From IMG/VR virus record IMGVR_UViG_3300029705_000041: DNA of 64,000 nt; one strand, written 5' to 3'. Origin of the DNA: a virus. Taxonomy: Duplodnaviria; Caudoviricetes. Below the pieces are notes generated by a model that was not told where the DNA came from, made no database searches, and saw nothing but the letters and a program-made list of their open reading frames with translations. Numbering within the stretch: position 1 is the first letter of the stretch; the number at the start of each line of letters is the position of its first letter. A program made the position numbers and the translations under genes. Below are positions 399-45,051 of the stretch, in pieces.

Positions 399-440
399 TT
401 CAGAAAAAGTATTGACAAATAAAATAAAGCGTGATATAAT
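394..440 (+). promoter_or_regulatory. sigma-A promoter with conserved upstream AATAATTCAGAAAAAGTA box
   Basis: TTGACA 412-417, 17-bp spacer, TG-n-TATAAT 435-440; upstream of tRNA cluster. Confidence 0.85.
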
Positions 441-1048: not shown

Positions 1049-1125
1049 GGGAGAGTAACGATAATTGGAAATCGCCTGGTCTCCAAAACCATGGTACGTA
1101 GGTTCGATTCCTACTTCTCCCGCCA
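1049..1125 (+). tRNA. tRNA-Trp(CCA)
   Basis: Acceptor GGGAGAG/TTCTCCC, loop CTCCAAA, T arm, CCA. Confidence 0.9.
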
Positions 1126-1302: not shown

Positions 1303-1389
1303 TAGCTTATTAGGCTAGAATGCATCATCCTTCTATTAAAATTATAATGGGTATAAAAGTAAGATGCAAAAATTCCCTAAAGTAAGCTA
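1303..1389 (+). ncRNA. scaffold RNA unit 1 (Y-RNA-like candidate)
   Basis: TAGCTTA..TTAGG/CCTAA..TAAGCTA outer stem, TGCATC/GATGCA inner stem, CATCCTTCTA 1326-1335; starts right after tRNA-Arg CCA. Confidence 0.7.
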
Positions 1390-1495: not shown

Positions 1496-1572
1496 TTAGG
1501 CTATGTGGCAGCTTCCTTCTATAAAAAACATACATGAAGAATATTAAAAGATAAGTTGCCACAATTTCCAAA
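1496..1572 (+). ncRNA. scaffold RNA unit 3
   Basis: GGCT, TGTGGCAGCT/AGTTGCCACA stem, TTCCTTCTA, AATTTCC; ends just before RBS of 1596 gene. Confidence 0.65.
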
Positions 1573-1595: not shown

Positions 1596-3818
1596 ATGTT
1601 TGAAGTAAATGAAATTTTGCTAAGAAGAAAGAATAAGGTAATTCTTGCTGAAGGTAATCGGGATTATGTAACAACCAAGACAGAAAAAGCAATGGTTGTA
1701 TCTATTGCAAAGAATATCGAGGCATATGGTTTTACTTTTTCGCCCGAAGTTTTAAACATTTTACTTACATTCACAAGAGATGAAATCGAAGCGTTTTATA
1801 AGGAATTAATTCCTAAGTTGAAAAAACTTGTTGGAGCAGATAAAGAGTATTATCCTATGTACCCTAATTTTCCGCAGCAAGTAATGGAAGCATCGGACAT
1901 TGAATTGTTCGTAAATGCAATACTTCATTATTTTACATTTGGTCAGTGGATGCCGGAGTATGAAAAAGATGAACGTTTACCACTGTTTGATAGTAATAAA
2001 ATGACTGTTTTATCTGTAGGAAATGCCTCTGATGTTATGGATATTCTTAGTAATTTGGTAAGCAGTAAAACATCGTTATCAGAACAGGACAAATGTGATG
2101 TTGAAACAATTATCAAAACATATCCTGAATATCACAAATATCTTCCGGATGAAATTCCTCTGAAGGAAAATGTAGCTTTAATAGGAAAGATAATTCTTGA
2201 AGAAGCTCCTATAAAGAAAGCAAGCTATATTCAAAAATATTATAAAACAGCAACAGATGTATTAAGACTTGTTACTTGTTTATCAGATGGAGATATAAGT
2301 TTGGCAACAAGAACAAAGTACAGAAGTTTAAAACGTGCTGAACGAAGAATGATAATGGATTTACTTGCTGGATGTGGTAACATTATCGAAGATTTATTTA
2401 GATACCATTATCAGTGGATTCGTGTCGGAGAAATCATTCATCCTTTTGAATATAAAGCTGCTAAATATAATAGCGTTAATGATGCATTTAAAATTCTTAG
2501 AGAAGATAATAAACCTTTGATGTTTGGTGGAAAGGTGCAAGCTGCAATTTTAGCAAAAGATATGAAAACAGCAGCAACCCTACTTAAAGAACGTCCAGGT
2601 GAATTTGCAAGACAGCTTGATAAAGTTATGAGAGATGCATCGGATAAGAATTATATTTTGAATTGCTTTAAAGCTGTAGCAAATGACATTTCTACTCCGG
2701 TTCTTCTTCAAGTAAGACAACATTTCCAGGGAAGAAATAATCAGAATCCAATCAGAGTATTTTTCCCAAAAGGAAATTTGGCAAGAGCAATAGTTATTCC
2801 AAATGAACTGGTTGAGATTGAAGATAGATATTGTAAGTCAATTGTACAAATCTGTGAAAATGCTCTTTTAGAAAATTATAAGAGTAAGGATTACATGGGT
2901 AAAGTATATATTGACAGTGAATTGAAAAATTATATTGTTCCATTCAATCAGAGAAGTGCAAGTAGTGCAAATAAAATCATAATCAGAGGTAGCCAGGTTC
3001 CTATTAAAGAGGACGCAACCGCTGTAAGAGGATTTATTTGGTGGACAAATATGGATAGCCATAGCTACGGTAGTAGAGTTGATATAGATTTATCTGCTGC
3101 AATTTATGATGAGAATTGGAATTATGTAAGTCATGTTTCTTATACAAATTTGAGAGATAAGAACTTACAAGCATTTCATTCCGGAGATATTACTGATGGT
3201 GGAAATGCTAATGGTAAAGGTGTTGCGGAATTTCTTGATGTAAATATAGATGCCGTAGCGAAAAGAGGAAGATATATTGTATATCAGGTTTATAGCTTTA
3301 CAGGGCAGAAGTTTTCTGATATGCCAAATTGTAGATTTGGTTGGATGGAACGTGAAGATGTTGCATCTGGAGAAATTTTTGAACCAAAAACTGTTGCTAT
3401 GAGTCTTGATGTTACTTCTGAAAGTACCGTGGCAATACCGGTAATATTCGATTGTAAAGAACGTAAGTTCATTTGGTGTGATATGAACCTTGGCATTAAT
3501 GATACAAGTAGAAGATGCAGAGGAAATAACCTGGAAAGTAATTTATCAGGTGTAACTGCAACTTGTTATGCTATGACACATTTAAACAAAGCAAATATTT
3601 ATGATTTGGTTAGATTAAATGTAGAAGCAAGAGGTTTAATTACAACCAATAGAAATGAGGCTGATATTATTTTTAGTAATGATACAACTATACCTGTAGA
3701 GGTAGTAGAAGTTGAAGATGAAATTACAAAAGAAAAGAAATTCGTTCAGCGTGAAAGAAATAATGTTCCGATTATAACTGCATATGATGCAGATTATTAT
3801 ATGGGACAGTTGCTATAA
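1596..3818 (+). CDS. large helical N-terminal region + C-terminal TerD-like domain protein (candidate TROVE/Ro-like RNA-binding protein)
   Basis: RBS AAGGAG; TerD-like motifs DIDLSA, HSGDITD, AEFLDV near C-terminus; TROVE-like assignment is inferred from context. Confidence 0.7.
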   Translation: MFEVNEILLRRKNKVILAEGNRDYVTTKTEKAMVVSIAKNIEAYGFTFSPEVLNILLTFTRDEIEAFYKELIPKLKKLVGADKEYYPMYPNFPQQVMEASDIELFVNAILHYFTFGQWMPEYEKDERLPLFDSNKMTVLSVGNASDVMDILSNLVSSKTSLSEQDKCDVETIIKTYPEYHKYLPDEIPLKENVALIGKIILEEAPIKKASYIQKYYKTATDVLRLVTCLSDGDISLATRTKYRSLKRAERRMIMDLLAGCGNIIEDLFRYHYQWIRVGEIIHPFEYKAAKYNSVNDAFKILREDNKPLMFGGKVQAAILAKDMKTAATLLKERPGEFARQLDKVMRDASDKNYILNCFKAVANDISTPVLLQVRQHFQGRNNQNPIRVFFPKGNLARAIVIPNELVEIEDRYCKSIVQICENALLENYKSKDYMGKVYIDSELKNYIVPFNQRSASSANKIIIRGSQVPIKEDATAVRGFIWWTNMDSHSYGSRVDIDLSAAIYDENWNYVSHVSYTNLRDKNLQAFHSGDITDGGNANGKGVAEFLDVNIDAVAKRGRYIVYQVYSFTGQKFSDMPNCRFGWMEREDVASGEIFEPKTVAMSLDVTSESTVAIPVIFDCKERKFIWCDMNLGINDTSRRCRGNNLESNLSGVTATCYAMTHLNKANIYDLVRLNVEARGLITTNRNEADIIFSNDTTIPVEVVEVEDEITKEKKFVQRERNNVPIITAYDADYYMGQLL

Positions 3819-3825
3819 AATATAT

Positions 3826-3904
3826 TTCGGCTGGGACTACTCATCCTTCTAAATGCTGCGTAGCATCAAACTTTTAATTTGACCAAGAGTAGAAAATATC
3901 CGAA
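3826..3904 (+). ncRNA. scaffold RNA unit 4, carries Lys(UUU) anticodon stem-loop
   Basis: TTCGG/CCGAA, CTACTC/GAGTAG, CATCCTTCTA; cargo TCAAA-CTTTTAA-TTTGA 3866-3882. Confidence 0.75.
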
Positions 3905-3921
3905 TATTAAAAAAATATAAA

Positions 3922-3968
3922 AATAATTCAGAAAAAGTATTGACAAATACAAAAAACTATGCTATAAT
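3922..3968 (+). promoter_or_regulatory. sigma-A promoter with conserved upstream box, upstream of units 5-7
   Basis: TTGACA 3940-3945, 17 bp, TG-c-TATAAT 3963-3968. Confidence 0.85.
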
Positions 3969-3984
3969 GTAATTACAGTAAAAG

Positions 3985-4065
3985 TTCGGCTGATAACACT
4001 CATCCTTCTAAGCCTTGAATAAGGAACATACTGCTAATATGATTAAAGAGTGTGAAATATCCGAA
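3985..4065 (+). ncRNA. scaffold RNA unit 5, carries Ser(GCU)-like anticodon stem-loop
   Basis: TTCGG/CCGAA, CACTC/GAGTG, CATCCTTCTA 4001-4010; cargo CATA-CTGCTAA-TATG 4027-4041. Confidence 0.75.
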
Positions 4066-4080
4066 TATTATAAAACCATA

Positions 4081-4209
4081 ATCGGCTAATAAGTTTCATC
4101 CTTCTACGTATTTTTAATCCTTGTGTTATGGGTTCGAGTCCCATCCATATCGGTGATATGGTAGCTCAACAGGTAGAGCAAAGGCAAGTTGGAAACTTAA
4201 ATATCCGAT
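4081..4209 (+). ncRNA. scaffold RNA unit 6 with circularly permuted tRNA-Lys-like domain (YrlA-like topology)
   Basis: ATCGG/CCGAT, TAAGTTTC/GAAACTTA; order TTTTAA-TCCTT, T arm ATGGG-TTCGAGT-CCCAT, acceptor CCATATC-ggt-GATATGG, D arm GCTC/GAGC, AAGG. Confidence 0.85.
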
Positions 4210-4238
4210 AAAAATAAAGCAGAAAAAGTATTGAACAA

Positions 4239-4382
4239 ATTTCGGCTGTAGGAATTCATCCTTCTAATATACATAATTCCAGGCTGCAAGTGTAGGTTCG
4301 ACTCCTGCTATCGTGCATATGTGCGATATAGCCAAACGGTAAGGCGGCAGCATATAAAAAAAGAATTCAAAATTTCCGAAAT
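4239..4382 (+). ncRNA. scaffold RNA unit 7 with circularly permuted tRNA-Gly-like domain
   Basis: ATTTCGG/CCGAAAT, GAATTC/GAATTC; TTCCAG-GCTGC, T arm GTAGG-TTCGACT-CCTGC, acceptor TATCGTGC-atat-GTGCGATA, D arm GCC/GGC, GCAGC. Confidence 0.85.
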
Positions 4383-4394
4383 GAGGTATAACAA

Positions 4395-5156
4395 ATGGCA
4401 AGAAAAATTAAAAACCAGTCAATTAACAAGACAGAAAAAGTATTTATAGAGAAATTTCAATCTTTATGTTATACAAGAAGTTCTTGGGAGGTTTGGGCTG
4501 ATTTTATAACAGCTACAGCTTGTGCAATCGCAAACTCTATTGACAAAGAATCAGAACAGTTTGAAAAAAGAGAAAAAGAATATGCTCAATGCATTGAAAG
4601 ACTTGGAGGTTTGCAAACTCCGGCAGAAATGCTTGGTATAATTACTATGGCTCTTGAAGAAAATCCGGAACAAGATTTCTTAGGTGGTTTATTTATGAAA
4701 CTTGAATTAGGAAATCATTGGAAAGGACAATTCTTTACACCATATTGTGTATGTAAAACCATGGCTGCTATTAATTCTTATGAGCTTGAAGAAACTATAC
4801 AAAATAAAGGCTGGGTTTCAGTAAATGATTGTGCTTGTGGTGCTGGAGCAACTTTGATAGCAATGGCAAACACCTTAAAAGAACATGAAGTTAATTATCA
4901 AAATCACGCCTTATTCGTGGCACAAGATATAGACAGAGTTGCAGGATTGATGTGTTACATTCAGTTGTCATTACTTGGATGTCCAGGATATGTTGTAATA
5001 GCCGATTCACTTACAAATCCGATTGTTGGAAGTGTTTTAAGACCGGCACAAAAAGAGAATCAAGAATTCTGGTTTACACCAATGTATGCATCAGATGTAT
5101 GGCACTACCGTAGATTATACAACATGATGGATTCAATACTATTTGGAAGGAATTAA
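4395..5156 (+). CDS. N-6 DNA methylase-like protein
   Basis: GQFFTPY and NDCACGAG (SAM-binding) motifs; no NPPY/F seen. Confidence 0.7.
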   Translation: MARKIKNQSINKTEKVFIEKFQSLCYTRSSWEVWADFITATACAIANSIDKESEQFEKREKEYAQCIERLGGLQTPAEMLGIITMALEENPEQDFLGGLFMKLELGNHWKGQFFTPYCVCKTMAAINSYELEETIQNKGWVSVNDCACGAGATLIAMANTLKEHEVNYQNHALFVAQDIDRVAGLMCYIQLSLLGCPGYVVIADSLTNPIVGSVLRPAQKENQEFWFTPMYASDVWHYRRLYNMMDSILFGRN

Positions 5157-5576: not shown

Positions 5577-5652
5577 ACGGATGTAGCTCAATCGGTAGAG
5601 CAGATGACTTTTAATCATCAGGTAGTGAGTTCGAGTCTCATCATCCGTACCA
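5577..5652 (+). tRNA. tRNA-Lys(TTT)
   Basis: ACGGATG/CATCCGT, loop CTTTTAA, CCA. Confidence 0.93.
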
Positions 5653-5908: not shown

Positions 5909-5912
5909 GAAT

Positions 5913-6404
5913 TGTTGCAGATGCGAATATAGGCGGTACTTAATTCATAGGCATTCAGTGCATATATCGTTAGCACACTCCGTGGGAACTGCTCCTATAG
6001 CTGATGGTTCCTTGCAACATCTACACGAATAAGAAGAAGCAAACTCTCTGCTAATGGTGAAATGATATATCTGTTAGCCGTACTAATACGTATTAGGTAT
6101 TTGTGTAGCGTTATAATCCTACCAACACGTTAGATTGGGGCAAGTATAATAGCGGATTAATATAGATAATGATTTGTAGCATAATGGATTTAGCAATTTA
6201 TTGTATTGGTGGCAAATATTATACATTTGTTGTCGGCTACACGGCGATAATCAATACGATAATGAGCGACAGTTTTTATTACCGGTTAAAGTTTTTGAAT
6301 TTGAGGTGAGGCATAATAATTTTGTGGAGTGGCTATGTAGACCAACTAGCAGTGTCTAAGCATAGAGTAGGATTTGATTGCTTTAGCCGGAATAAAAATT
6401 GCTT
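5913..6404 (+). ncRNA. candidate large structured ncRNA
   Basis: No plausible gene; nested helices such as CAGTTTTTATT-CCGGTTAAAG / CTTTAGCCGG-AATAAAAATTG and TTATTGTATTG/CAATACGATAA. Confidence 0.5.
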
Positions 6405-8897: not shown

Positions 8898-9659
8898 ATG
8901 ATTTATATAACAGGAGATTGTCATGCAGATTGGAGAAAATTTTCTACTGAATCTTTTCCGGAACAAAAAGATATGACAAGAGATGATTTTGTAATTGTAT
9001 GTGGAGATTTTGGCTTATGGCATGATAATTCAACAGAACAATGGTGGTTTAAATGGTTTGAAGAAAAGAACTTTACACTGTTATTTGTTGATGGAAACCA
9101 CGAAAATTTTGACAGGCTTTATGGCGATGAGTTTGAAGTTGTTGACTTTCATGGTGGCAAAGCTCATAAAATTCGAGAAAATATTTACCATTTAATGAGG
9201 GGTTATATATTTGAGTTAGAGGGTAAGAAATTTTTTGCTTTTGGTGGAGCAAGCAGCCATGATATTAATGATGGTATTTTAAACCTTGAAGATTACAATA
9301 ATGAAAAAGAATTAATTAAAACATATAACAGGCTTACCAGAGCCGGTAAGTTAATAAGAATCAATCATTTATCATGGTGGCAAGAAGAAATGCCAAGTAA
9401 TGATGAAATGGAATTGGGGAAACAGAATCTTGCTGATAATGGCAATAAAGTGGATTATATTATTAGTCATTGTTGCCCTCAAACGGTAGCAGCATTACTA
9501 TCTAGAGGATATTATAAAGCTGATAAACTCACAGATTATTTTAATGAGATAAAAGAAAATACTTCATTTAATAAATGGTTTTTCGGTCATTATCACGATG
9601 ACACACAAATACTTGAAAACTTTATTCTTCTATATCATCAGATTATAAGAATTATTTAA
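8898..9659 (+). CDS. metallophosphoesterase
   Basis: GDCH, GDFG, GNHEN, GHYH. Confidence 0.9.
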   Translation: MIYITGDCHADWRKFSTESFPEQKDMTRDDFVIVCGDFGLWHDNSTEQWWFKWFEEKNFTLLFVDGNHENFDRLYGDEFEVVDFHGGKAHKIRENIYHLMRGYIFELEGKKFFAFGGASSHDINDGILNLEDYNNEKELIKTYNRLTRAGKLIRINHLSWWQEEMPSNDEMELGKQNLADNGNKVDYIISHCCPQTVAALLSRGYYKADKLTDYFNEIKENTSFNKWFFGHYHDDTQILENFILLYHQIIRII

Positions 9660-9985: not shown

Positions 9986-10582
9986 ATGGGAAAAATGTTT
10001 TTTATTTCTGATTTGCATTTTGGTCATAAAAATTGCCTGGCTTTTGACAACAGACCTTTTAAGGATATTGAAGAACATGACTCAATGCTTATAAGGATGT
10101 GGAATAATGTTGTAGGAATAGACGATGATGTATGGATTTTAGGAGATATTAGCTGGCATAATGCAACTAAAACAATTGAAATTTTTAAACAGCTTAACGG
10201 AATAAAGCATTTGTGCAGAGGAAATCATGATTCTAAGTTGTTGAGAAATAAGCAAGTACAAGAGCTATTTGTTGAAATATGTGATTACAAAGAAATTCAG
10301 TTAGATAACAAGTATGGAATTGTTTTAAGTCATTATCCAATACCTTGTTATAATCATCATTATTATGGTTGGTATCATTTATACGGTCATGTACATACAA
10401 GTTTTGAATGGAATATGATGGAAAGAAACCAATATGAAATGATTGCTTTGTATGATAAAGAAAGCCATATGTATAATGTTGGCTGCATGGTTCCATATAT
10501 GGGTTTTACCCCCAAGACTCTTGAAGGAATTGTAGAAAGTTATACGAAATATAAAGAGAGAATTGGAGAAAATATGAAATGA
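9986..10582 (+). CDS. calcineurin-like phosphoesterase
   Basis: SDLHFGH, LGDI, GNHD, HYP, GHVH. Confidence 0.9.
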   Translation: MGKMFFISDLHFGHKNCLAFDNRPFKDIEEHDSMLIRMWNNVVGIDDDVWILGDISWHNATKTIEIFKQLNGIKHLCRGNHDSKLLRNKQVQELFVEICDYKEIQLDNKYGIVLSHYPIPCYNHHYYGWYHLYGHVHTSFEWNMMERNQYEMIALYDKESHMYNVGCMVPYMGFTPKTLEGIVESYTKYKERIGENMK

Positions 10583-34832: not shown

Positions 34833-35500
34833 GTAAGAAAAGAGCTTTTACAGGATTAACTTTTAATTATGTCATTGACCAAGTGTTATTGAAAGCTAAA
34901 TTCAAAACAATAGAAGAATTTCTGGAGACTATTTTTCCAAAGAACAATAATCCTAAATCGCCAAATGATAATAGCGAAATATCAAACATTCGTTGGAAAA
35001 AATATCACATTGATACACGTGATAGTGTTAAAACGGTTGCTGATTTAAAGATTCTTTTAATTAATGAACCGGATGTGATAAATCCACCAAAGAAACCACC
35101 TAAAACTTTGCAGCTAATTCGCAAACAAAAATATTCTATTGAAGAAGTTAAAGAGACTGTAAAAGATGTTTTGTTTGAAACAGATGATAAAAAGGCACGA
35201 ATAGAATTTGACGGTGATTATATTAAAGGTAATAGTCAAAGATACCAAACATTCTTTACTGATGGAGTTAAATGTTCTTGTTGCGGTATAGAGGGTAAGT
35301 TCTTTGCAAAAGAAAGACATTCAACTTCAAAATGCTATCATTTAAACTTATATGCCGTTGATGATAATGGCATAGAAATCCTTATGACAAAAGACCACAT
35401 TATTCCAAAATCCAAGGGTGGGAAAAACCATTTGAGCAATTATCAAACAATGTGTTCAGTGTGTAACTCCCTTAAAGGAAATAGAATGGAGAATGAATAA
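34829..35500 (+). CDS. HNH endonuclease
   Basis: CSCC...TKDHIIPKSKGGKNHLSNYQTMCSVCN. Confidence 0.85.
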   Translation: MSKKRAFTGLTFNYVIDQVLLKAKFKTIEEFLETIFPKNNNPKSPNDNSEISNIRWKKYHIDTRDSVKTVADLKILLINEPDVINPPKKPPKTLQLIRKQKYSIEEVKETVKDVLFETDDKKARIEFDGDYIKGNSQRYQTFFTDGVKCSCCGIEGKFFAKERHSTSKCYHLNLYAVDDNGIEILMTKDHIIPKSKGGKNHLSNYQTMCSVCNSLKGNRMENE

Positions 35501-36813
35501 TGTATTGTGCTTATATAACAACAATTCGTGAACTAAGGAAACATAGTAATGCAGATAGATTGCAGTGTGCAACGATTTTTGGCAATAACGTCATAGTTGA
35601 TATGACATATAAATCGGGGGACAGAGTAATTTATTTTCCTGTTGACGGTCAACTTGGAAAAGAATTTGCAGATGATAATAATTTAGTTCGTAAAAAAGAT
35701 GCTGAAGGAAATAATATTGGTGGTTATTTAGACCCTAATAAAAGAAATATTACAGCTTTAAAATTACGTGGTGAACAATCAGATGGTTTAGTTTTGCCGA
35801 TAACTGTTTTAAGTAAATACATCAATGTAGACACTTTGACAGATGGAGAGCAAATAACAGTATTAAATGGATATGAAATTTGTAAAAAATACATTCCGGT
35901 TGGAAAACCACGTTCACATACATATACAACAAGTAAAACAAGAAAAAATAAAAAGGAAGAAAAACAAAAAATTACATATCCGTTTTTTGTAGAACACATA
36001 GACACTGCGCAACTTGCGTATAATCAGTCTGCATTTAAACCAGGAGATACTTGCTACATTACACTTAAAATGCATGGAACATCTGCTAGAACTATGAATG
36101 CAGTTGAGGTTACAAAAAGAAAAGCAAATCCGATTGCAAAAAAAGTTTTTAAAGTTAAAGACAAAGAAACAAGGCAATATAAGTGCGTAAGTGGAACAAG
36201 AAGAACCACGTTAAAAAATTATGATGGTGGTTGGTATGGTAGCAATGCATTTAGAGAAAAGTATCATGAATTCTTTAAAGAAAGACTCCCAAAAGGCGCA
36301 GAAATATTCTACGAAATTGTTGGCTGGATAAACGAAGATACAACAATAATGGGTAGATGTTCTAACAAGCTAATAAAAGATAAAGAATTTAGTAAGCAAT
36401 ATGGTGACGAAACTATTTTCTCTTATGGTTGCAATATTGGCGAAAGTGATTGTTATGTTTACAGAATGACACTAACAAATGAAGATGGCTTTGCCGTTGA
36501 GATTCCTTGGGAACAAGTATTGATAGAATGTGAAAAAATGGGAGTTAAATGTGTTCCTACATTTGAAAAATTCACATTTACAACTTGGGAAGATTTAATG
36601 GAAAGAGTTGAGAAATATTATGACGGTGCTGACCCTGTAGGCAAAAGTCATGTAAGAGAAGGTGTCGTTGTAAGAATTGATAACAGACCGAGTTTTACTG
36701 CTTATAAACATAAGAATTTCAGTTTCAAATGTTTAGAGGGAATTATCAAAGATACATCCGATGCTCCGGATATAGAAGAAGCAGAAGAACTCATTATAGA
36801 TGAAGTAATTTAA
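35500..36813 (+). CDS. RNA ligase (DRB0094/Rnl2-like)
   Basis: N-terminal HSNADRL OB-like region, KMHGTS motif I, YEIVG, EGVV, YKHK. Confidence 0.85.
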   Translation: MYCAYITTIRELRKHSNADRLQCATIFGNNVIVDMTYKSGDRVIYFPVDGQLGKEFADDNNLVRKKDAEGNNIGGYLDPNKRNITALKLRGEQSDGLVLPITVLSKYINVDTLTDGEQITVLNGYEICKKYIPVGKPRSHTYTTSKTRKNKKEEKQKITYPFFVEHIDTAQLAYNQSAFKPGDTCYITLKMHGTSARTMNAVEVTKRKANPIAKKVFKVKDKETRQYKCVSGTRRTTLKNYDGGWYGSNAFREKYHEFFKERLPKGAEIFYEIVGWINEDTTIMGRCSNKLIKDKEFSKQYGDETIFSYGCNIGESDCYVYRMTLTNEDGFAVEIPWEQVLIECEKMGVKCVPTFEKFTFTTWEDLMERVEKYYDGADPVGKSHVREGVVVRIDNRPSFTAYKHKNFSFKCLEGIIKDTSDAPDIEEAEELIIDEVI

Positions 36814-37417: not shown

Positions 37418-40012
37418 ATGAGAGGTTTAACAAAAAACGAGGTACTTGATAGCAGACGAAGATACGGAAGCAATAAGTTACCAGAACCAAAACAGAAGAA
37501 ATGGTATGATTTCGCAAAAGAAGCATTAAGCGAAAAAATTACACTTATCTTAATTGCAATTGCAGCACTTCAACTTGTCCTTGCATTTGTTGGAGTTATG
37601 GAATGCTCTGAACCGATTATGATTATGTTGGTGTTAGGTATTGTAACTAGCATTGCAATCAGAACAGGATTAGGTGTTCAGAAGTCAGCAACAGAATTAA
37701 GAATGAAAACCGCTGTGCGATATTGTGATGTTATACGAGATGGCGAAGTGCAGACAATAAATAAAGATGAAATTGTTGTCGGAGATATTGTTTGTATAGG
37801 AATGGGTCAAGAGATTTTTGCTGATGGCTACATTATCGAAGGTAAGGTAAGTGTTAATAATGCAGCTATTAATGGTGAAACAAAAGAATGCAGAAAAACA
37901 CCGGTTGAAAATTATGTACATCAGAAAACAACTTCAACAGATGCATATACAAACCAAAACTGTCTTTTTGCCGGAACAAGCATTATGTCTGGCGAAGGAA
38001 AAATGATTGTTACAGATGTTGGTGTTAATACAGTGAACGGTGATACTCTTGTAAAAATGCAGACACTTGAAGCACCAAAAACAGCTCTTGATATAGCTCT
38101 TGACAATTTAAGTGAGTTCATTTCAAAGTGGGGAACCATTGCCGCAGTTATTACATTCTTTGTTCTAACAATTTCCGGAATGCTTGAAGTTGGTATGGCA
38201 AAATACTTTACAGGTAATATCTTGAATATTGTTCAGAAACTTGCTTCAAACTTTTCTGTTGCATTAACAATTATTGTTGCAGCAGTGCCGGAAGGATTAC
38301 CACTAATTGTAAAACTAGTAACAAAGCAGAATGTAAAAACTATGGAGAAGTCGAATATTTTGGCGAAAAATCCTGGTAAAATTCCTGAACTTGCTTATGT
38401 AAATCTGATTTGTACAGATAAAACAGGTACTCTTACTACAGGCATTATGTCTCCAAGAACAATTGTAGATTATTCAGGAAATGAAGTTCAGAGAGATACT
38501 GCTCTATTTGCAGAACTAAAGAAGAATATTGTATTGAATAACAGTGCAGTATTTGATTCGGATAATAAGATTACAGGCGGTAACTCTATTGACAGAGCTG
38601 TACTATCATTGGTTTTGCCCGCAGAAGCAAAAGATATTTCTGCTGATAATACATTGCTTGATAAGCAAGTATTTAACAGTATTAATAAATATTCTGCGTT
38701 TACAACCAGTGATAAGATTACATATTATAAGGGCGCTCCAGAAAAGATTATCGAATCTTGTGCTACAGCAATGTTAGCTGATGGAACGGTAGTTGATTTC
38801 AATGATAAGGAAGTGCTTAACAATAAGATTAAAGAGTTTACAACTAATTCCATTAGATGTATTGCTTTAGCGGTAGCTAATGAATGTTTGGTTGAAAATG
38901 AACTTCCTACAAATATGACACTTTTAGGAATCATAGGCGTTGTTGACCCGATTAGACCGGAAGTGCCAGAAGCAGTAAGAGTTGCAAACAAAGCAGGAAT
39001 CCAAGTAATTGAAATTACCGGTGACTGTATTGAAACAGCAATTGCAGTTGCAAAAGAATGCGGTATTTACAAAGATGGCGATATTGCTCTTACAAATGAA
39101 AAATTTGAAAAAATGAGTGATGAAGAAGTAAAAGCAATAATTCCTGGATTAAGAGTTATTTCAAGATGTTCACCTAATACGAAATTAAGACTTGTTACTT
39201 TGGCACAAGAAATTGGAATGTCTGTAGCAATGACAGGTGATGGAGTTAATGACTCTCCGGCATTAAAGAGAGCCGATGTAGGTTTTGGTATGCAGAGCGG
39301 CAGTGATGTCGCAAAAGAAGCATCAGACATCATTCTTACAGATGATAACTTTGCATCTGTTGTGAAAGCTGTTGAACTCGGAAGAACATTTATGCACAAT
39401 ATCATGATGTTCCTCGAATTCCAGTTACCAATAAATATATCGTTACTTATTTTGAGTATGGTTTATCCTATGTTTGCTGCCGGTTCAATTTTGGCATCAG
39501 TTCAGATTCTTATTGTAAATATTATCATGGATTCCTTAAATTCATTGTCATTCGGTGGAGAACCACCTAAAGATGAATATATGGATGAAAAACCGATTAA
39601 AAAGGGTTCAGGATTATTTATTCGTGGTGCAAAAGGTAAAATTGCAGTAAGCACTATTACATTTATTCTTGCTTATGCAATTCTGATATTTGCTATTCCT
39701 GATAAGTTTTTTGCAAATGAAACAAGTGCTTTGACAGCTCGATTTGCGTTGCTTTGTTTCATGGCAACATTGAATGGTTTTAATATTAGAACCGAACATA
39801 TTAATTTGTTTACAGGATTAAATAAAAATAAATTGTTTGTAAAGATTGCAATTGGTATTTTTGTAGGAGTAATTCTTACTTGTACTTTTGCAGGAAATCT
39901 TGTAAAGGTTTGTCCATTAGATATTACACAGTGGATTATAATTATGGTCTTATCATTAATTGTAATTCCTGTTGATAGTATAAGAAAAATTATAACAAAT
40001 AAAAGGAGATAA
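37418..40012 (+). CDS. P-type (Ca2+-translocating-like) ATPase
   Basis: VPEGL, DKTGT, KGAPE, TGD, GDGVND; TGES replaced by NGET. Confidence 0.92.
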   Translation: MRGLTKNEVLDSRRRYGSNKLPEPKQKKWYDFAKEALSEKITLILIAIAALQLVLAFVGVMECSEPIMIMLVLGIVTSIAIRTGLGVQKSATELRMKTAVRYCDVIRDGEVQTINKDEIVVGDIVCIGMGQEIFADGYIIEGKVSVNNAAINGETKECRKTPVENYVHQKTTSTDAYTNQNCLFAGTSIMSGEGKMIVTDVGVNTVNGDTLVKMQTLEAPKTALDIALDNLSEFISKWGTIAAVITFFVLTISGMLEVGMAKYFTGNILNIVQKLASNFSVALTIIVAAVPEGLPLIVKLVTKQNVKTMEKSNILAKNPGKIPELAYVNLICTDKTGTLTTGIMSPRTIVDYSGNEVQRDTALFAELKKNIVLNNSAVFDSDNKITGGNSIDRAVLSLVLPAEAKDISADNTLLDKQVFNSINKYSAFTTSDKITYYKGAPEKIIESCATAMLADGTVVDFNDKEVLNNKIKEFTTNSIRCIALAVANECLVENELPTNMTLLGIIGVVDPIRPEVPEAVRVANKAGIQVIEITGDCIETAIAVAKECGIYKDGDIALTNEKFEKMSDEEVKAIIPGLRVISRCSPNTKLRLVTLAQEIGMSVAMTGDGVNDSPALKRADVGFGMQSGSDVAKEASDIILTDDNFASVVKAVELGRTFMHNIMMFLEFQLPINISLLILSMVYPMFAAGSILASVQILIVNIIMDSLNSLSFGGEPPKDEYMDEKPIKKGSGLFIRGAKGKIAVSTITFILAYAILIFAIPDKFFANETSALTARFALLCFMATLNGFNIRTEHINLFTGLNKNKLFVKIAIGIFVGVILTCTFAGNLVKVCPLDITQWIIIMVLSLIVIPVDSIRKIITNKRR

Positions 40013-40018
40013 AGGAAT

Positions 40019-40597
40019 ATGTCAATTAGTTTAGTAAAAGGTCAGAAAATTGATTTGACAAAAGGAAACGGTGGTCTCAATAGCGTTGTTTTTGGATTAG
40101 GTTGGGACACCAACAAATACGATGGAGATAATGATTTTGATTTAGATGTTTCTGTTTTCTTGACGGATGCAACAGGAAAAGTAACTGGAGAGCAGGATTT
40201 CATCTTCTATAATCAGACTTCACATCCAAGTGGTGCAGTGGTTTATTCGGGCGATAATAGAAATGGTGAAGGTGCCGGAGATGACGAAACAATGAAAGTT
40301 GACTTATCGAAAGTTCCTACAAATATCGAAAAGATTAGTTTTGTTGCGACAATTCATGAAGCAGAAGCAAGATTGCAGAATTTTGGCATGGTTGATAATT
40401 CTTATATTCGTGCATATAACACAGATACAAATGAAGAATTGTTTAAGTACGAATTGAATGAAGATTTTTCATTAGAAACAGGTATTATTGCAGGAGAACT
40501 TTACAGACATAATGGCGAATGGAAGTTTGCAGCTGTAGGTTCTGGTTATGCTGGTGGCTTAACCACTATAGCACGTAATTTTGGTTTAAATATTTAA
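40019..40597 (+). CDS. terD: TerD family protein
   Basis: GLGWD, DLDVS, GDNRNGEGAGDDE. Confidence 0.9.
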   Translation: MSISLVKGQKIDLTKGNGGLNSVVFGLGWDTNKYDGDNDFDLDVSVFLTDATGKVTGEQDFIFYNQTSHPSGAVVYSGDNRNGEGAGDDETMKVDLSKVPTNIEKISFVATIHEAEARLQNFGMVDNSYIRAYNTDTNEELFKYELNEDFSLETGIIAGELYRHNGEWKFAAVGSGYAGGLTTIARNFGLNI

Positions 40598-40615
40598 TTT
40601 TAGGAGGATAAAAAT

Positions 40616-41188
40616 ATGTCAATTAGTTTATCAAAGGGTCAGAAGATTAGTTTATCAAAAGAGGTTGAAGGTTTAAGTAAGGTTGTTGTTGGTCTTGGTT
40701 GGGATGCTGCAAAGAAAGGTCTTTTTGGTGGACAGCATAATATCGACTGCGATGCATCAGCGATTATTCTTGACAATGAGGGTAAGTATGTAGATTGCGT
40801 TTATTATGGCAATACTTCTTCGGTTTCCGGCAATGTATTCCATCACGGCGATAATCTCACAGGAGATGGTGACGGAGACGATGAACAGATTACAGTAAAT
40901 CTCGCAAATATGCCATCAAATGTAGGCAAGATTGTATTTGTTGTTAATATTTATGCTTGTGAATCCAGAAAGCAAGATTTCGGAATGATTCAGAACGCAT
41001 TTATCAGACTTGTTGATTCTTCAAGTAGCAAAGAAATTTGTAAGTATAATCTTTCTGAAAATTATGACGGTAAGACAGCTATGATTTTTGCGGAAGTTTA
41101 TAAGCATGATAATGAGTGGAAATTCAATGCTATCGGTCAGGGAACAGTAGATAAGAGCATTTCTGAACTCACAAAGAGATATAAATAA
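40616..41188 (+). CDS. TerD/TerZ family protein
   Basis: GLGWD, DCDAS, GDNLTGDGDGDDE. Confidence 0.9.
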   Translation: MSISLSKGQKISLSKEVEGLSKVVVGLGWDAAKKGLFGGQHNIDCDASAIILDNEGKYVDCVYYGNTSSVSGNVFHHGDNLTGDGDGDDEQITVNLANMPSNVGKIVFVVNIYACESRKQDFGMIQNAFIRLVDSSSSKEICKYNLSENYDGKTAMIFAEVYKHDNEWKFNAIGQGTVDKSISELTKRYK

Positions 41189-41202
41189 GGAGGAAACTAG
41201 AT

Positions 41203-41784
41203 ATGTCAGTAATGTTAAGTAAAGGTGAAAAGGTAGATTTAACCAAGAATAATCCTACTCTTAGTAAAATAAGAGTAGGTCTTGGCTGGGACACAAATCA
41301 GTATGATGGCGAAGCAGATTTTGACTTAGATGCTTCTGTATTTATGCTGAAAGCAAACGGCAAAGTTGGCAGTGATAAGGATTTTGTATTCTATGGTAAT
41401 TTAGCTCATCCAAGCCAGAGTGTTGTACATACCGGAGATAATAGAACCGGAGAAGGAGACGGAGACGATGAAACAATTAAGGTTGAATTGTCAAAAGTTC
41501 CTGCGGATTATGAAAAGCTTGTTGTAGTGGTTACTATTTATGATGCAGATAAGAGATTGCAGAATTTTGGTATGGTATCAAACGCTTATATTCGTTTAAT
41601 TGACGAAAATAACGGAGAAGAAATTTTACGTTACGATTTGAGCGAAGATTTCTCAACACAGACAGCACTTGTTATTGGTGAAATTTATAAGCATGGCAAC
41701 GATTGGAAATTTAACGCAGTTGGCAGCGGCTATAATGGTGGTTTAGCGCAGTTGTGTTCAGCATACGGTATCGAAGCAAACTAA
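41203..41784 (+). CDS. terD: TerD family protein
   Basis: GLGWD, DLDAS, GDNRTGEGDGDDE. Confidence 0.9.
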   Translation: MSVMLSKGEKVDLTKNNPTLSKIRVGLGWDTNQYDGEADFDLDASVFMLKANGKVGSDKDFVFYGNLAHPSQSVVHTGDNRTGEGDGDDETIKVELSKVPADYEKLVVVVTIYDADKRLQNFGMVSNAYIRLIDENNGEEILRYDLSEDFSTQTALVIGEIYKHGNDWKFNAVGSGYNGGLAQLCSAYGIEAN

Positions 41785-41797
41785 GAGGGGGATTAAT

Positions 41798-42550
41798 ATG
41801 ACAAACTTTATGTTTTTCGTTATTGTCCTGATTGCGGTAATTATTCTTATTCTTTTGCTTAATAAACCATTTCGTCAGCAGTTACTTGTCAAGTTTCGTG
41901 GACGAACAGATGAAATGATGAGACAGGATGCATCTACTCCTGAAGGTGCAAAAGACTATTATAATGCAGCAATTAGAGAAAAAGAAGATTTTTACAATAA
42001 GGCTTCTGCTACATATGCAGAAATCTCCGGTAAGTTAGATTCTACAGAAAAAGACTTATATCAAGCTAATAAAGATATTATGAAAGTCACACAACAGCTT
42101 AATCAGTGTATCGACAATAATAATGATGAAGATGCGATGACTTATGCAATGAAGAAAACAACGCTTGAAAATAAAGTCGAAGTTCTTAAAGAAACAATTG
42201 TTGAAATTAAAGAAGCTCAAAAGCATCAAAAAGAAGTTCGTGACCAGGCTGCTTCTGACTTACAAAAACTTAGAGAAGAAAAAGAAAGAGTAGTTTTCCA
42301 ACTTGAAGCAGATAGTCAGATAATTGAACTCCATCAGTCGTTGGATAGTATTGCTGCAAACAACGAAAGTGACAGAATGCTTGAAAGAGTAAGAGAGGGT
42401 GCAAAAAAGGCAAGAGAAAAAGCTGAAGGTAGCAGAATTGCTTATGAAACAAGTTCACAAGCGGCAGACCGTAGACTTGCAAGAGAAGAAAGAGATAGAG
42501 AGGCACGCCGCATGGTAGAAGAACTAAAGAGACAGAGAGGTAAACAATGA
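41798..42550 (+). CDS. membrane-anchored coiled-coil protein (PspA/IM30-like)
   Basis: N-terminal TM, long coiled coil. Confidence 0.6.
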   Translation: MTNFMFFVIVLIAVIILILLLNKPFRQQLLVKFRGRTDEMMRQDASTPEGAKDYYNAAIREKEDFYNKASATYAEISGKLDSTEKDLYQANKDIMKVTQQLNQCIDNNNDEDAMTYAMKKTTLENKVEVLKETIVEIKEAQKHQKEVRDQAASDLQKLREEKERVVFQLEADSQIIELHQSLDSIAANNESDRMLERVREGAKKAREKAEGSRIAYETSSQAADRRLAREERDREARRMVEELKRQRGKQ

Positions 42551-44016: not shown

Positions 44017-45051
44017 ATGATAAAAAGTGGTAATAAAATCAGTGTTTTATCATCAGCAAACAGAGGTTTAAGAAGTATGCTGGGAATTCGTGAAGATGCA
44101 TCAAATTTCAAAAATCCAGCAATTACTGTATTAGTAGGATTGCCAGCAAGCGGAAAATCTACAATTGCTGAAAAACTTGAAAATAAAAACACAGTCATTC
44201 ATTCATCTGATAAATTAAGAGAAGAATTATATGGCGATGAAAACACCCAGGAACATAATGCAGACTTATTTGTTGAGTTGCACAGAAGAATAAAAGAAGA
44301 TTTAAGAAATGGTAAAAATGTAATTTATGATGCAACCAACATTAATAAGAAACGAAGAATTGCTTTTCTTGGAGAATTAAAAAATATACCATGCAAAAAA
44401 GTATGTATATGTATGATGACACCATATGAATTATGTTTAAAATACAATTCTTCAAGAGAAAGAAAAGTTCCGGAAGAAGTAATAAAAAGAATGTATATGA
44501 ATTGGAATCCACCATCAATGCAAGAGGGTTTTGACGAGATACATTATCATTATAACTACGGTGAAAACCATGAAACCGTTAAATATAGATACAGATTAAC
44601 TACATTATTTGAGGGAGATTGTGGAATTGATAATTTTCCACAGGAAAATAGCCATCACACATTAACTCTTGGAATGCATTGTAGGCAAGCAAATGAGTAT
44701 GTAGTAGAGCATTTTCCTTCAGAAAGATTATTACATATTGCAACACTTTTGCACGATAACGGTAAAGTCTTTACTAAAACTAAATTAAATGCAAAAGGTG
44801 AAGAAGATGGCGAATGTCATTATTATCAACATCATTGTGTAGGAGCTTATGACTCATTATTTTACACTAATGAGATGAAATTAAGTGAAGAAGATAAGAC
44901 ATATATCGCTAATTTAATATACTTTCATATGCATCCCTTTACATCCTGGCACCAATCCAAAAGTGTTGAAAGACGAAATAAAATTCAAATTGGCGATGAA
45001 ATGTATGATGATATAATGCGTTTACATGAAGCTGATTTAGCTGCACATTAG
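44017..45051 (+). CDS. polynucleotide kinase (AAA_33) + HD phosphoesterase
   Basis: GLPASGKST, SSD..R, DATN; H..LLHDNGK..HH..HM..EAD. Confidence 0.85.
   Translation: MIKSGNKISVLSSANRGLRSMLGIREDASNFKNPAITVLVGLPASGKSTIAEKLENKNTVIHSSDKLREELYGDENTQEHNADLFVELHRRIKEDLRNGKNVIYDATNINKKRRIAFLGELKNIPCKKVCICMMTPYELCLKYNSSRERKVPEEVIKRMYMNWNPPSMQEGFDEIHYHYNYGENHETVKYRYRLTTLFEGDCGIDNFPQENSHHTLTLGMHCRQANEYVVEHFPSERLLHIATLLHDNGKVFTKTKLNAKGEEDGECHYYQHHCVGAYDSLFYTNEMKLSEEDKTYIANLIYFHMHPFTSWHQSKSVERRNKIQIGDEMYDDIMRLHEADLAAH

What the first reader, a model, noticed from the sequence alone, without database searches (positions are those of the whole stretch)
3826..4065. Isolated anticodon stem-loops matching phage-encoded tRNAs
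Seen: unit 4 displays TCAAA-CTTTTAA-TTTGA, with the same 7-nt loop as the phage tRNA-Lys at 5577. Unit 5 displays CATA-CTGCTAA-TATG, a canonical Ser-GCU loop. Each follows a small hairpin. All three cargo identities (Lys-UUU, Ser-GCU, Gly-UCC) match tRNAs in this cluster. Known: tRNA-Lys(UUU) is the PrrC target. Inference: these are anticodon decoys, so the cargo acts as a swappable specificity element.
Basis: partly seen in the sequence, partly recalled or inferred. Interest (0 to 1): 0.75.

Follow-up and report, generated by a model that had tools for sequence, protein, structure and literature searches.

The report
Anticodon-arm mimics on Y-like RNAs
Two small phage RNAs carry faithful copies of tRNA anticodon arms (lysine and serine) on a conserved scaffold next to a Ro60-like protein gene; this is a new type of tRNA mimic that may bait proteins that read or cut tRNA anticodons.

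Summary
Units 4 (3826-3904) and 5 (3985-4065) each carry a small hairpin followed by a 4-5 bp stem with a 7-nt loop: CUUUUAA (Lys-UUU) and CUGCUAA (Ser-GCU).

They are 2 of 7 units sharing a two-helix scaffold (GGCUR, P2, AUCCUUCUA, cargo, P2', AAAUAUCC). The units flank a 740-aa gene whose predicted helical domain most resembles Ro60/TROVE, with a TerD domain inserted.

Evidence from about 80 related phage loci:
- The same scaffold flanks the homologous gene, always on the gene strand.
- All three helices covary: 92.7% of cells paired, against 62% in shuffles.
- U33, A37 and A38 are at least 90% conserved, while the triplet varies.
- Anticodon-like loops (YUNNNAA) occur in 11 of 73 cargo clusters, against 1.6 expected.
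- UUU recurs on at least 5 different stems.

The decoy interpretation is only partly supported. No nuclease link is shown, and cargo identities do not always match phage tRNAs.

Best reading: effector modules of a new Y-RNA-like ribonucleoprotein family that present anticodon arms to an anticodon-reading partner.

First readers of this scan noted the same system in other genomes.

The parts
3826..3904 (+). Unit 4: scaffold (P1, P2, core AUCCUUCUA 3843-3851), hairpin 3853-3866, and a Lys-UUU anticodon-arm mimic 3866-3882 (loop 3871-3877)
   Evidence: Sequence; minimum-energy fold; scanner; covariation of P1, P2 and the anticodon-like helix in 23 homologues
3985..4065 (+). Unit 5: scaffold (core 4002-4010), hairpin 4013-4024, and a Ser-GCU anticodon-arm mimic 4027-4041 (loop 4031-4037)
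   Evidence: same loop on a different stem in L005:4914 and L218:1054
3940..3968 (+). Consensus sigma-70 promoter (TTGACA, 17 nt, TG-TATAAT; 12 of 12 matches) just upstream of unit 5; likely drives units 5-7
   Evidence: a second 12-of-12 site at 412-440 precedes the upstream tRNAs, units 1-3 and the gene
1596..3818 (+). Gene for the 740-aa presumed protein partner: helical domain most similar to the Ro60/TROVE ring (about residues 146-445), TerD domain (473-660), C-terminal alpha/beta part
   Evidence: No Pfam hit; phrog_33734 and NF041916 below its cut-off; AlphaFold2 pLDDT 91.5; TerD Z 15.8; Ro60 chains rank 1, 2 and 9 of 48,161 for the N-terminal domain (Z 9.1, 8.9, 7.1)
1303..1389 (+). 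Unit 1: same scaffold; AU-rich cargo with an AUGGGU loop
1401..1487 (+). Unit 2: same scaffold; T-arm-like cargo (GAGG-TTCAATC-CCTC)
1496..1572 (+). Unit 3: same scaffold (core UUCCUUCUA); AU-rich cargo; lies directly upstream of the gene's ribosome-binding site
4081..4209 (+). Unit 6: same scaffold; permuted tRNA-like cargo (T arm, closed acceptor stem, D arm), closest to the phage tRNA-Lys
   Evidence: Rfam YrlA RF02553 model positions 23-85, 40.2 bits, E 2e-7, below the gathering score of 69; 54 of 66 identical to tRNA-Lys after permutation
4239..4382 (+). Unit 7: same scaffold; permuted tRNA-like cargo with ACAUAAUUCCAG leader

Best explanation
Units 4 and 5 are small RNAs of a Y-RNA-like family.

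Shared scaffold. It consists of outer helix P1, an internal loop (GGCUR opposite AAAUAUCC), inner helix P2 and the invariant stretch AUCCUUCUA. It is most likely the binding site for the adjacent Ro60-like (TROVE plus TerD) protein.

Variable module. Where classical bacterial Y RNAs carry a tRNA body without an anticodon arm, these two units carry the missing part: a short D-arm-like hairpin and a faithful anticodon stem-loop with U33, a specific triplet, and A37/A38.

Proposed function. The particle presents this arm to a partner that reads anticodon loops, and the triplet sets which partner or which specificity. The leading candidate is a host anticodon nuclease, which the abundant, protein-held mimic would soak up or trap. 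The phage's own tRNAs and its RNA ligase and kinase would deal with the remaining damage.

Shown: the structure, its conservation, the constraint on the loop, and the linkage to the gene.
Inferred: protein binding to the scaffold (about 0.8), recognition of the triplet by a trans-acting partner (about 0.6), and that this partner is an anticodon nuclease (about 0.3).
For: Structure and family.
- The scanner finds exactly 7 units in 64 kb across both strands.
- It finds 1-9 units beside the homologous gene in nearly all related loci with protein identity of 44% or more. All are on the gene strand, with one minus-strand hit in 80 loci.
- In two complete 150-160 kb relatives the units occur only at this locus, apart from one stray hit each.
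- Covariation: 92.7% of cells paired, against 62.0 +/- 1.7 in shuffles and 38-47% with slid partners. The anticodon-like helix has 5 of 5 pairs with changes on both sides.

Loop.
- U33, A37 and A38 are at least 90% conserved.
- Enrichment of anticodon-like loops.
- CUUUUAA sits on stems TCAAA, ACAAA, ATAAT, ATAGA and ATTCGA.
- Triplet swaps occur within near-identical frames.

Ro/Y analogy.
- Unit 6 matches the tRNA-like part of Rfam YrlA.
- Ro60 structures are the best structural matches of the protein's helical domain (Foldseek probability 0.99 for 9l5y_B).
- Y RNAs lie within a few kb of Ro60 on the same strand (PMC4201824). Phage Ro60 proteins bind adjacent Y-like RNAs (PMC12135203).

Conflict context.
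- RNA ligase at 35500-36810, kinase with HD domain at 44017-45048, phosphoesterases at 8898 and 9986.
- The ligase is present in 5 of 5 complete relatives.
- A 12-of-12 consensus promoter sits directly before unit 5.
- From established knowledge: T4 Pnkp and Rnl1 repair tRNA-Lys cut by PrrC, and anticodon stem-loop analogues are PrrC substrates.
Against: - No expression, end-mapping or binding data could be obtained.
- The protein has no TROVE Pfam hit. Its Ro60 similarity (Z about 9) lies in the range where helical-repeat proteins can match by common architecture (note).
- The scaffold lacks the GNCGAAN0-1G motif of bacterial Y RNAs (PMC4201824).
- A stoichiometric decoy must outcompete abundant host tRNA, and natural nucleases often need base modifications that a mimic may lack.
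- The cargo set includes identities not known to me as common nuclease targets (Cys, Thr, Phe). It also includes non-anticodon modules (T arm only, UGGGA loops), so the family as a whole is not specialised for anticodons.
- Co-occurrence with repair genes is confounded by shared ancestry of the phages.
Confidence: 0.5

Rival explanations
1. Classical Y-RNA tether. The anticodon arm recruits a tRNA-handling enzyme to the Ro-like ring, so that the enzyme acts on RNAs held by the ring. Candidates are an anticodon-loop modification enzyme, an aminoacyl-tRNA synthetase, or the phage's own ligase and kinase. No nuclease is involved.
For: Y RNAs tether Ro60 to effector proteins, and the YrlA tRNA-like domain is called the effector-binding module (10.1101/312249; PMC4201824). 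Position 37 follows natural identity rules: A37 with the UUU, GCU, GGU, GCA, UGA and GAA triplets, and G37 with UGG. That would suit enzymes that read natural loops. Other units carry T-arm or whole-body modules.
Against: Ser anticodons are not read by seryl-tRNA synthetase (established knowledge), yet Ser-GCU and Ser-UGA mimics recur. It is unclear why one phage would need 2-4 different anticodon tethers. No candidate enzyme lies in the locus, except a methyltransferase-like gene found in only 7 of 80 loci.
Confidence: 0.25
2. RNA-RNA reader. The exposed triplet pairs with a codon-like sequence: an mRNA codon in a ribosomal A site, or the specifier codon of a host T-box leader. This would alter translation or amino-acid regulation.
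For: The loop has the features needed for a U-turn and codon pairing (U33 and a purine at 37). The hosts are Clostridia, which use T-box leaders widely (established knowledge). The core resembles an anti-Shine-Dalgarno sequence (from memory, untested).
Against: T-box stem I also needs the tRNA elbow, which units 4 and 5 lack. No complementary target was sought or found. No precedent is known for protein-bound stem-loops acting in this way.
Confidence: 0.08
3. Neutral remnants. The cargos are decaying pieces of neighbouring tRNA genes captured by recombination within the tRNA cluster, and only the scaffold is functional.
For: The arrays are embedded in tRNA clusters, and a tRNA gene often abuts the first unit. 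Unit 6 is 54 of 66 identical to the phage tRNA-Lys.
Against: The loops stay intact while the stems change by compensatory substitutions across phages whose proteins are only 55-69% identical. Enrichment over shuffles is strong. UUU persists on at least 5 different stems.
Confidence: 0.05
4. Processing intermediates. The units are precursors cut or ligated into functional tRNAs or tRNA halves.
For: Units 6 and 7 are permuted tRNAs. M. smegmatis YrlA can be cut by RNase P and receive CCA (PMC4201824).
Against: Units 4 and 5 have no T arm or acceptor end, so no tRNA can be made from them.
Confidence: 0.03

Closest known systems
Bacterial and phage Y RNAs of the YrlA type with Ro60/Rsr (Rfam RF02553; PMC4201824; 10.1101/312249)
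   Same: Small RNAs encoded beside a ring-protein gene on the same strand. A terminal stem carries a protein-binding internal loop, plus a tRNA-derived module. Unit 6 matches the YrlA tRNA-like domain.
   Different: The scaffold sequence differs: GGCUR and AUCCUUCUA instead of GNCGAAN0-1G. There are arrays of 5-9 units rather than 1-2. Units 4 and 5 carry an anticodon arm, which is the part YrlA lacks. The protein has no TROVE sequence match and contains a TerD domain.
Deinococcus radiodurans Yrn1
   Same: It can be drawn with an 'anticodon arm' of 5 bp (PMC4201824).
   Different: Its loop has 6 nt and no anticodon-loop signature. Here the loops have 7 nt with U33 and a purine at 37, plus natural triplets.
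Thermus phage phiLo Ro60 with Yrl1 and Yrl2 (PMC12135203; PDB 9l5y)
   Same: A phage-encoded Ro60 with adjacent Y-like RNAs. It is the second-best structural match of the protein's helical domain (Z 8.9, 253 residues aligned).
   Different: The phiLo RNAs carry the CGAA motif and no anticodon arm. The phiLo protein has a canonical vWA domain and no TerD.
Phage counter-measures to anticodon nucleases: T4 Pnkp and Rnl1 against PrrC, and phage tRNAs with altered anticodon loops (the latter cited in PMC11482910 as van den Berg et al. 2023, not read here)
   Same: Same battlefield: tRNA-Lys(UUU) anticodon loops, phage tRNA sets, and a phage RNA ligase and kinase.
   Different: Those are repair or replacement strategies using real tRNAs. 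A protein-held, non-decoding anticodon-arm mimic has not been described in the papers I could search.
Other tRNA mimics (tmRNA, TYMV tRNA-like structure)
   Same: They copy parts of tRNA to engage tRNA-binding proteins (10.1101/312249).
   Different: Those mimic the acceptor and T half and are aminoacylated. Units 4 and 5 mimic only the D and anticodon half and have no acceptor end.

Membership tests
YrlA / bacterial Y RNA (Rfam RF02553) | Score at or above the Rfam gathering threshold (69 bits) | tested here: not met
   No hit for units 4 and 5. Unit 6 scores 40.2 bits and matches only model positions 23-85.
YrlA / bacterial Y RNA (Rfam RF02553) | GNCGAAN0-1G motif near the 5' end for Ro60 binding (PMC4201824) | tested here: not met
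   The 5' sides read UUCGGCUGGGAC and UUCGGCUGAUAAC. The conserved elements are GGCUR and AUCCUUCUA. CCGAA occurs only in the 3' strand of P1 and is not conserved in units 1-3 or in other loci.
YrlA / bacterial Y RNA (Rfam RF02553) | Encoded within a few kb of a Ro60 orthologue, on the same strand | tested here: inconclusive
   The units lie within 0-600 nt of the gene on the same strand in the window and in related loci. The protein resembles Ro60 only by predicted fold.
YrlA / bacterial Y RNA (Rfam RF02553) | tRNA-like module with T arm, closed acceptor stem and D arm | tested here: not met
   Absent from units 4 and 5. Present in units 6 and 7.
tRNA (RF00005) | Cloverleaf detected by ARAGORN or Rfam | tested here: not met
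   No tRNA call overlaps 3826-4065.
tRNA anticodon stem-loop (as a structural element) | A 5-bp stem closing a 7-nt loop with pyrimidine 32, U33 and purine 37 | tested here: met
   U4 is (U)CAAA-CUUUUAA-UUUG(A); U5 is CAUA-CUGCUAA-UAUG (4 bp). The helix is 90.4% paired with 5 of 5 covarying pairs. U33, A37 and A38 are at least 90% conserved in 23 homologues.
Ro60 / TROVE proteins (Pfam PF05731) | Sequence match to the TROVE domain | tested here: not met
   No Pfam family at E <= 0.01. No PDB sequence match.
Ro60 / TROVE proteins (Pfam PF05731) | HEAT-repeat ring fold | tested here: inconclusive
   For the N-terminal 445 residues: 2nvo_A Z 9.1 with 243 residues aligned, 9l5y_B Z 8.9 with 253, 1yvp_A Z 7.1 with 276. 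These rank 1, 2 and 9 of 48,161 chains; other hits align only about 100 residues. The Z range is one where helical repeats can match by architecture alone.
Ro60 / TROVE proteins (Pfam PF05731) | C-terminal vWA domain with a MIDAS site | tested here: inconclusive
   Residues 473-660 are a TerD domain (Z 15.8). Whole-model alignments to Ro60 extend to residue 740, but the vWA domain was not examined on its own.
Anticodon-nuclease decoy or inhibitor | Bound or cut by an anticodon nuclease, and protects host or phage tRNA | not testable with these tools
   Only context is available: RNA ligase, kinase with HD domain, phosphoesterases and a large tRNA set.

The most novel reading that the evidence does not exclude
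Large gut and rumen Clostridia phages make a ribonucleoprotein that displays a small library of tRNA parts on one protein-binding scaffold: anticodon arms, T arms and whole permuted bodies. These act as baits that capture, neutralise or sense host tRNA-targeting nucleases. The anticodon triplet is a specificity element that can be retargeted by point mutation, for example Cys to Tyr or Lys to Ser within the same frame.
Probability: 0.3. Interest if true: 0.88.

Novelty: new variant of a known kind. Interest (0 to 1): 0.72.

Why it matters
Y RNAs and Ro60 are conserved from bacteria to humans, yet the purpose of their variable modules is largely unknown, and the partner of the bacterial tRNA-like module has not been identified.

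Here one scaffold carries interchangeable, recognisable tRNA parts. These include complete anticodon arms whose triplet is conserved or swapped. That makes the question 'what does the module bind?' directly testable with defined mutants.

If the partner is an anticodon nuclease, this would be a third phage strategy against tRNA-cleaving defences, besides repair and replacement tRNAs. It would also be a natural example of a programmable RNA bait.

The protein family is large: about 3000 clusters at 50% identity. It has no described function.

Tried and rejected
- Own genome: none is held. Context came from the window and from five complete relatives reached through loci.
Protein-anchored loci were used instead.
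- My automatic search for the anticodon stem in the permuted tRNA-like cargos was unreliable. Those cargos were read by eye, and I make no statistical claim about them.
- A scan of genome contigs with the alignment failed because no stretch was conserved enough. The single protein worked.
- Foldseek on the N-terminal domain gave nothing at E <= 0.001. The Ro60 link rests on VIA-align ranks and on Foldseek probabilities of 0.87 and 0.99.
- The strict scanner misses diverged scaffolds. For example, the Coprococcus group has a CGGUUUCC tail. Absence of units in distant loci is therefore not evidence of absence.
- UUUGGGA loops were first read as Pro-UGG mimics. Units next to the gene carry UGGGA/UGGGU loops of 5-7 nt, so some of these probably belong to a different 'GGG-loop' class. 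The YUNNNAA statistic does not depend on them.
- The 9-nt-loop excess is a by-product: a 7-nt loop with a stem of at least 5 bp is also counted as a 9-nt loop.
- PADLOC has no model for the 740-aa protein.
- Literature searches found no description of this scaffold or of a TerD-containing Ro60-like protein.

Full report
**What is at the coordinates.** The window is an AT-rich phage-like region with 10-11 tRNA genes. Between them lie seven units of one design:
- an outer helix P1 ending in GG;
- CUR plus a few bases;
- an inner helix P2 of 6-10 bp;
- the stretch (A/U)UCCUUCUA;
- a variable cargo;
- the P2 partner;
- AAAU(A/U)U, then CC closing P1.

Three units (1303-1572) precede a 740-aa gene (1596-3818) and four (3826-4382) follow it. 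A script that encodes this design finds exactly these seven units in the whole 64 kb on both strands.

Unit 4 (3826-3904) has the cargo ATGCT-GCGT-AGCAT followed by (T)CAAA-CTTTTAA-TTTG(A). Unit 5 (3985-4065) has CCTT-GAAT-AAGG, then AA, then CATA-CTGCTAA-TATG. RNAfold gives these helices as the minimum-energy folds, but the energies are unremarkable for such AT-rich RNA (z -0.8 and -1.5). The U4 loop equals the loop of the phage tRNA-Lys at 5577-5652.

**Is it more than chance?** Outside tRNAs and units, the window has about 0.1 hairpins per kb with a stem of at least 4 bp and a CUNNNAA loop (6 and 8 in about 61.5 kb per strand). Two occur here in about 90 nt of cargo.

The stronger evidence is comparative. 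The 740-aa protein has thousands of relatives. I fetched 80 viral loci with 33-69% identical proteins. The scaffold flanks the gene in nearly all loci at 44% identity or more. It is always on the gene strand, with a single minus-strand hit in about 700 kb.

In two complete relatives of 153 and 161 kb, the units (8 and 9) occur only at this locus, plus one stray hit each.

An alignment of 23 distinct units with short cargos was scored against the three-helix model:
- 92.7% of cells pair, against 62.0 +/- 1.7 in shuffles and 38-47% when partners are slid.
- The covariation score is 0.80 against 0.20.
- P1 is 94.7% paired, P2 92.9% and the anticodon-like helix 90.4%. All five pairs of the last helix show changes on both sides.
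- In the loop, the positions equivalent to U33, A37 and A38 are at least 90% conserved, while the three central bases vary.

The scan gave 192 units with 147 different cargos. Of these, 28 are tRNA-like and 119 are not. Among the 119, 36 have a hairpin with a 7-nt YUNNNRN loop, against 8.3 +/- 2.8 in dinucleotide shuffles.

After clustering at 70% identity (73 clusters), the numbers are 19 against 5.05 +/- 2.14. For YUNNNAA they are 11 against 1.6 +/- 1.2. No shuffle out of 1000 reaches either observed count. Loops of 7 nt are enriched (100 against 63.6 +/- 8.2), while loops of 4, 6 and 8 nt are not.

The loops seen are natural anticodon loops:
- CUUUUAA (Lys), on at least five different stems;
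- CUGCUAA (Ser);
- CUGCAAA (Cys);
- CUGUAAA (Tyr);
- CUUGAAA (Ser);
- CUGAAAA (Phe);
- CUGGUAA (Thr);
- UUUGGGA (Pro-like, with G37).

Near-identical frames differ only in the triplet. L009:2993 and L012:3300 differ by one base (GCA vs GUA). L218:1054 and L004:6980 share GGAACAAAC-U-NNN-AA-UUUGU with GCU vs UUU. The loop is under constraint, and the triplet is both conserved (UUU) and exchangeable.

[quoted passage not shown] In YrlA the tRNA body is joined through its anticodon stem to a Ro60-binding stem, and there is no anticodon loop or CCA end (PMC4201824; 10.1101/312249).

The 740-aa protein has no Pfam match. It does have a confident AlphaFold2 model (pLDDT 91.5):
- Residues 473-660 are a TerD domain (Z 15.8).
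- The next best matches of the whole model are three Ro60 structures, with 319-334 residues aligned.
- For the N-terminal 445 residues folded alone (pLDDT 92.9), Deinococcus Rsr and Thermus phage Ro60 are ranks 1 and 2 of 48,161 chains (Z 9.1 and 8.9; 243 and 253 residues aligned).
- Xenopus Ro60 is rank 9. All other hits cover only about 100 residues of generic helical repeats.
- Foldseek gives a probability of 0.99 for the phage Ro60, but a weak E-value.

I read this as a divergent Ro60-like ring with a TerD insertion. The Z values are in a range where caution is needed.

The scaffold is not the canonical one, because the GNCGAAN0-1G motif is absent. The units should therefore not be filed as YrlA members, although they most likely work like Y RNAs: a constant protein-binding part plus a variable module.

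Within this frame, units 4 and 5 are notable because their module is exactly the piece that YrlA lacks. Read 5' to 3', it runs P2, linker, short hairpin, one or two A, anticodon arm, short linker, P2'. This resembles a tRNA without its T arm. That comparison is my inference.

**Context.**
- Arrays are embedded in tRNA clusters, and a tRNA gene often abuts the first unit.
- Two perfect extended -10 promoters (12 of 12) lie at 412-440 and at 3940-3968. The second is immediately before unit 5.
- The window also encodes an RNA ligase (35500-36810), a polynucleotide kinase fused to an HD domain (44017-45048), two metallophosphoesterases, three TerD proteins, a P-type ATPase and a PspA-like protein.
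- The ligase is present in five of five complete relatives, although these phages are all related.
- Relatives of the protein occur in assemblies labelled Ruminococcus, Lachnospiraceae, Coprococcus and Eubacterium.
- In a Coprococcus aceti contig the gene has a single upstream unit with a UGGGA-type cargo and no tRNA parts. The tRNA-derived cargos may therefore be an elaboration found in phages.

**Function.** I commit to the following. The particle presents an anticodon arm to a partner that reads anticodon loops. Constraint on U33, the triplet and A37 argues for sequence-specific recognition.

The partner is unknown. The anticodon-nuclease reading (decoy, trap or sensor) is favoured by three points:
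- the dominance of Lys-UUU, the classical nuclease target;
- the repair genes;
- the strong promoter.

It is weakened by four points:
- the lack of any direct link to a nuclease;
- the stoichiometry problem a decoy faces;
- the presence of identities not known as frequent targets;
- the non-anticodon cargos in the same arrays.

The claim that cargos mirror the phage's own tRNAs holds in this window but not in general. G001 has a Thr-GGU cargo but only tRNA-Thr(UGU), and G002 has a Cys-GCA cargo but no tRNA-Cys.

The main rival is the classical tether role for a tRNA-handling enzyme. Pairing with codons or T-box specifiers, neutral remnants, and processing intermediates are less likely, for the reasons given under rivals.

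**Novelty.** Ro60 with Y RNAs, including phage versions and tRNA-like modules, is known (PMC4201824; PMC12135203; PMC7824862; PMC11482910). I found no description of this scaffold, of a TerD-containing Ro60-like protein, of arrays of up to nine units, or of isolated anticodon-arm modules.

First readers of this scan noted the same system in this and several other genomes, without follow-up. I rate it a new variant of a known kind, of high interest because it gives a defined handle on what Y-RNA modules do.

Noticed in passing
window 5909-6400: About 490 nt without a credible ORF between tRNA-Leu(UAA) and tRNA-Pro. No Rfam match even at the permissive threshold. Possibly a large structured RNA, as another first-reader note suggests.
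   Followed up: no
window 1049-1122 and 572-644: Rfam calls a tRNA at 1049-1122 (45.6 bits; loop CUCCAAA, Trp-like) that ARAGORN misses. The tRNA-Gln at 572-644 scores only 33.6 bits. Both may be aberrant tRNAs or tRNA mimics.
   Followed up: partly
window 4395-5156: A 253-aa protein similar to N6-adenine methyltransferases (PF02384, phrog_5696) lies directly after unit 7. A homologue follows the array in 7 of 80 related loci. It could modify DNA or the RNAs.
   Followed up: partly
window 35500-36810, 44017-45048, 8898-9659, 9986-10582: RNA ligase, polynucleotide kinase fused to an HD domain, and two metallophosphoesterases: a likely tRNA/RNA repair kit.
   Followed up: partly
window 37418-42550: A P-type cation ATPase, three tandem TerD genes and a PspA-like gene. 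This is a Ter-like module in the same phage whose Ro60-like protein carries a TerD domain.
   Followed up: no
L215:3415-3478 (Coprococcus aceti contig): A homologue on a bacterial contig with no tRNA genes in the ~1.7 kb of flank read has a single scaffold unit, with UGGGA cargo, directly upstream of its ribosome-binding site. It could be a leader or autoregulatory element, or the ancestral single Y-like RNA.
   Followed up: partly
L191:3088-3199: In a distant relative (36% protein identity) the scaffold motif encloses what looks like a complete, non-permuted tRNA-like sequence with anticodon loop UUCGGGU. ARAGORN calls it an odd tRNA.
   Followed up: no
window 4002-4027; L003:7511-7565: Many cargos carry RGGA/GGGA that can pair with the core UCCUU. 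In L003 this is the only possible partner. This suggests an alternative core-cargo helix or a protein contact.
   Followed up: no
window 400-440, 3928-3968, 4214-4236: The sequence CAGAAAAAGTATTGACAAAT, which contains the -35 box, is repeated before both consensus promoters. A degenerate third copy (TTGAACA) lies between units 6 and 7.
   Followed up: no
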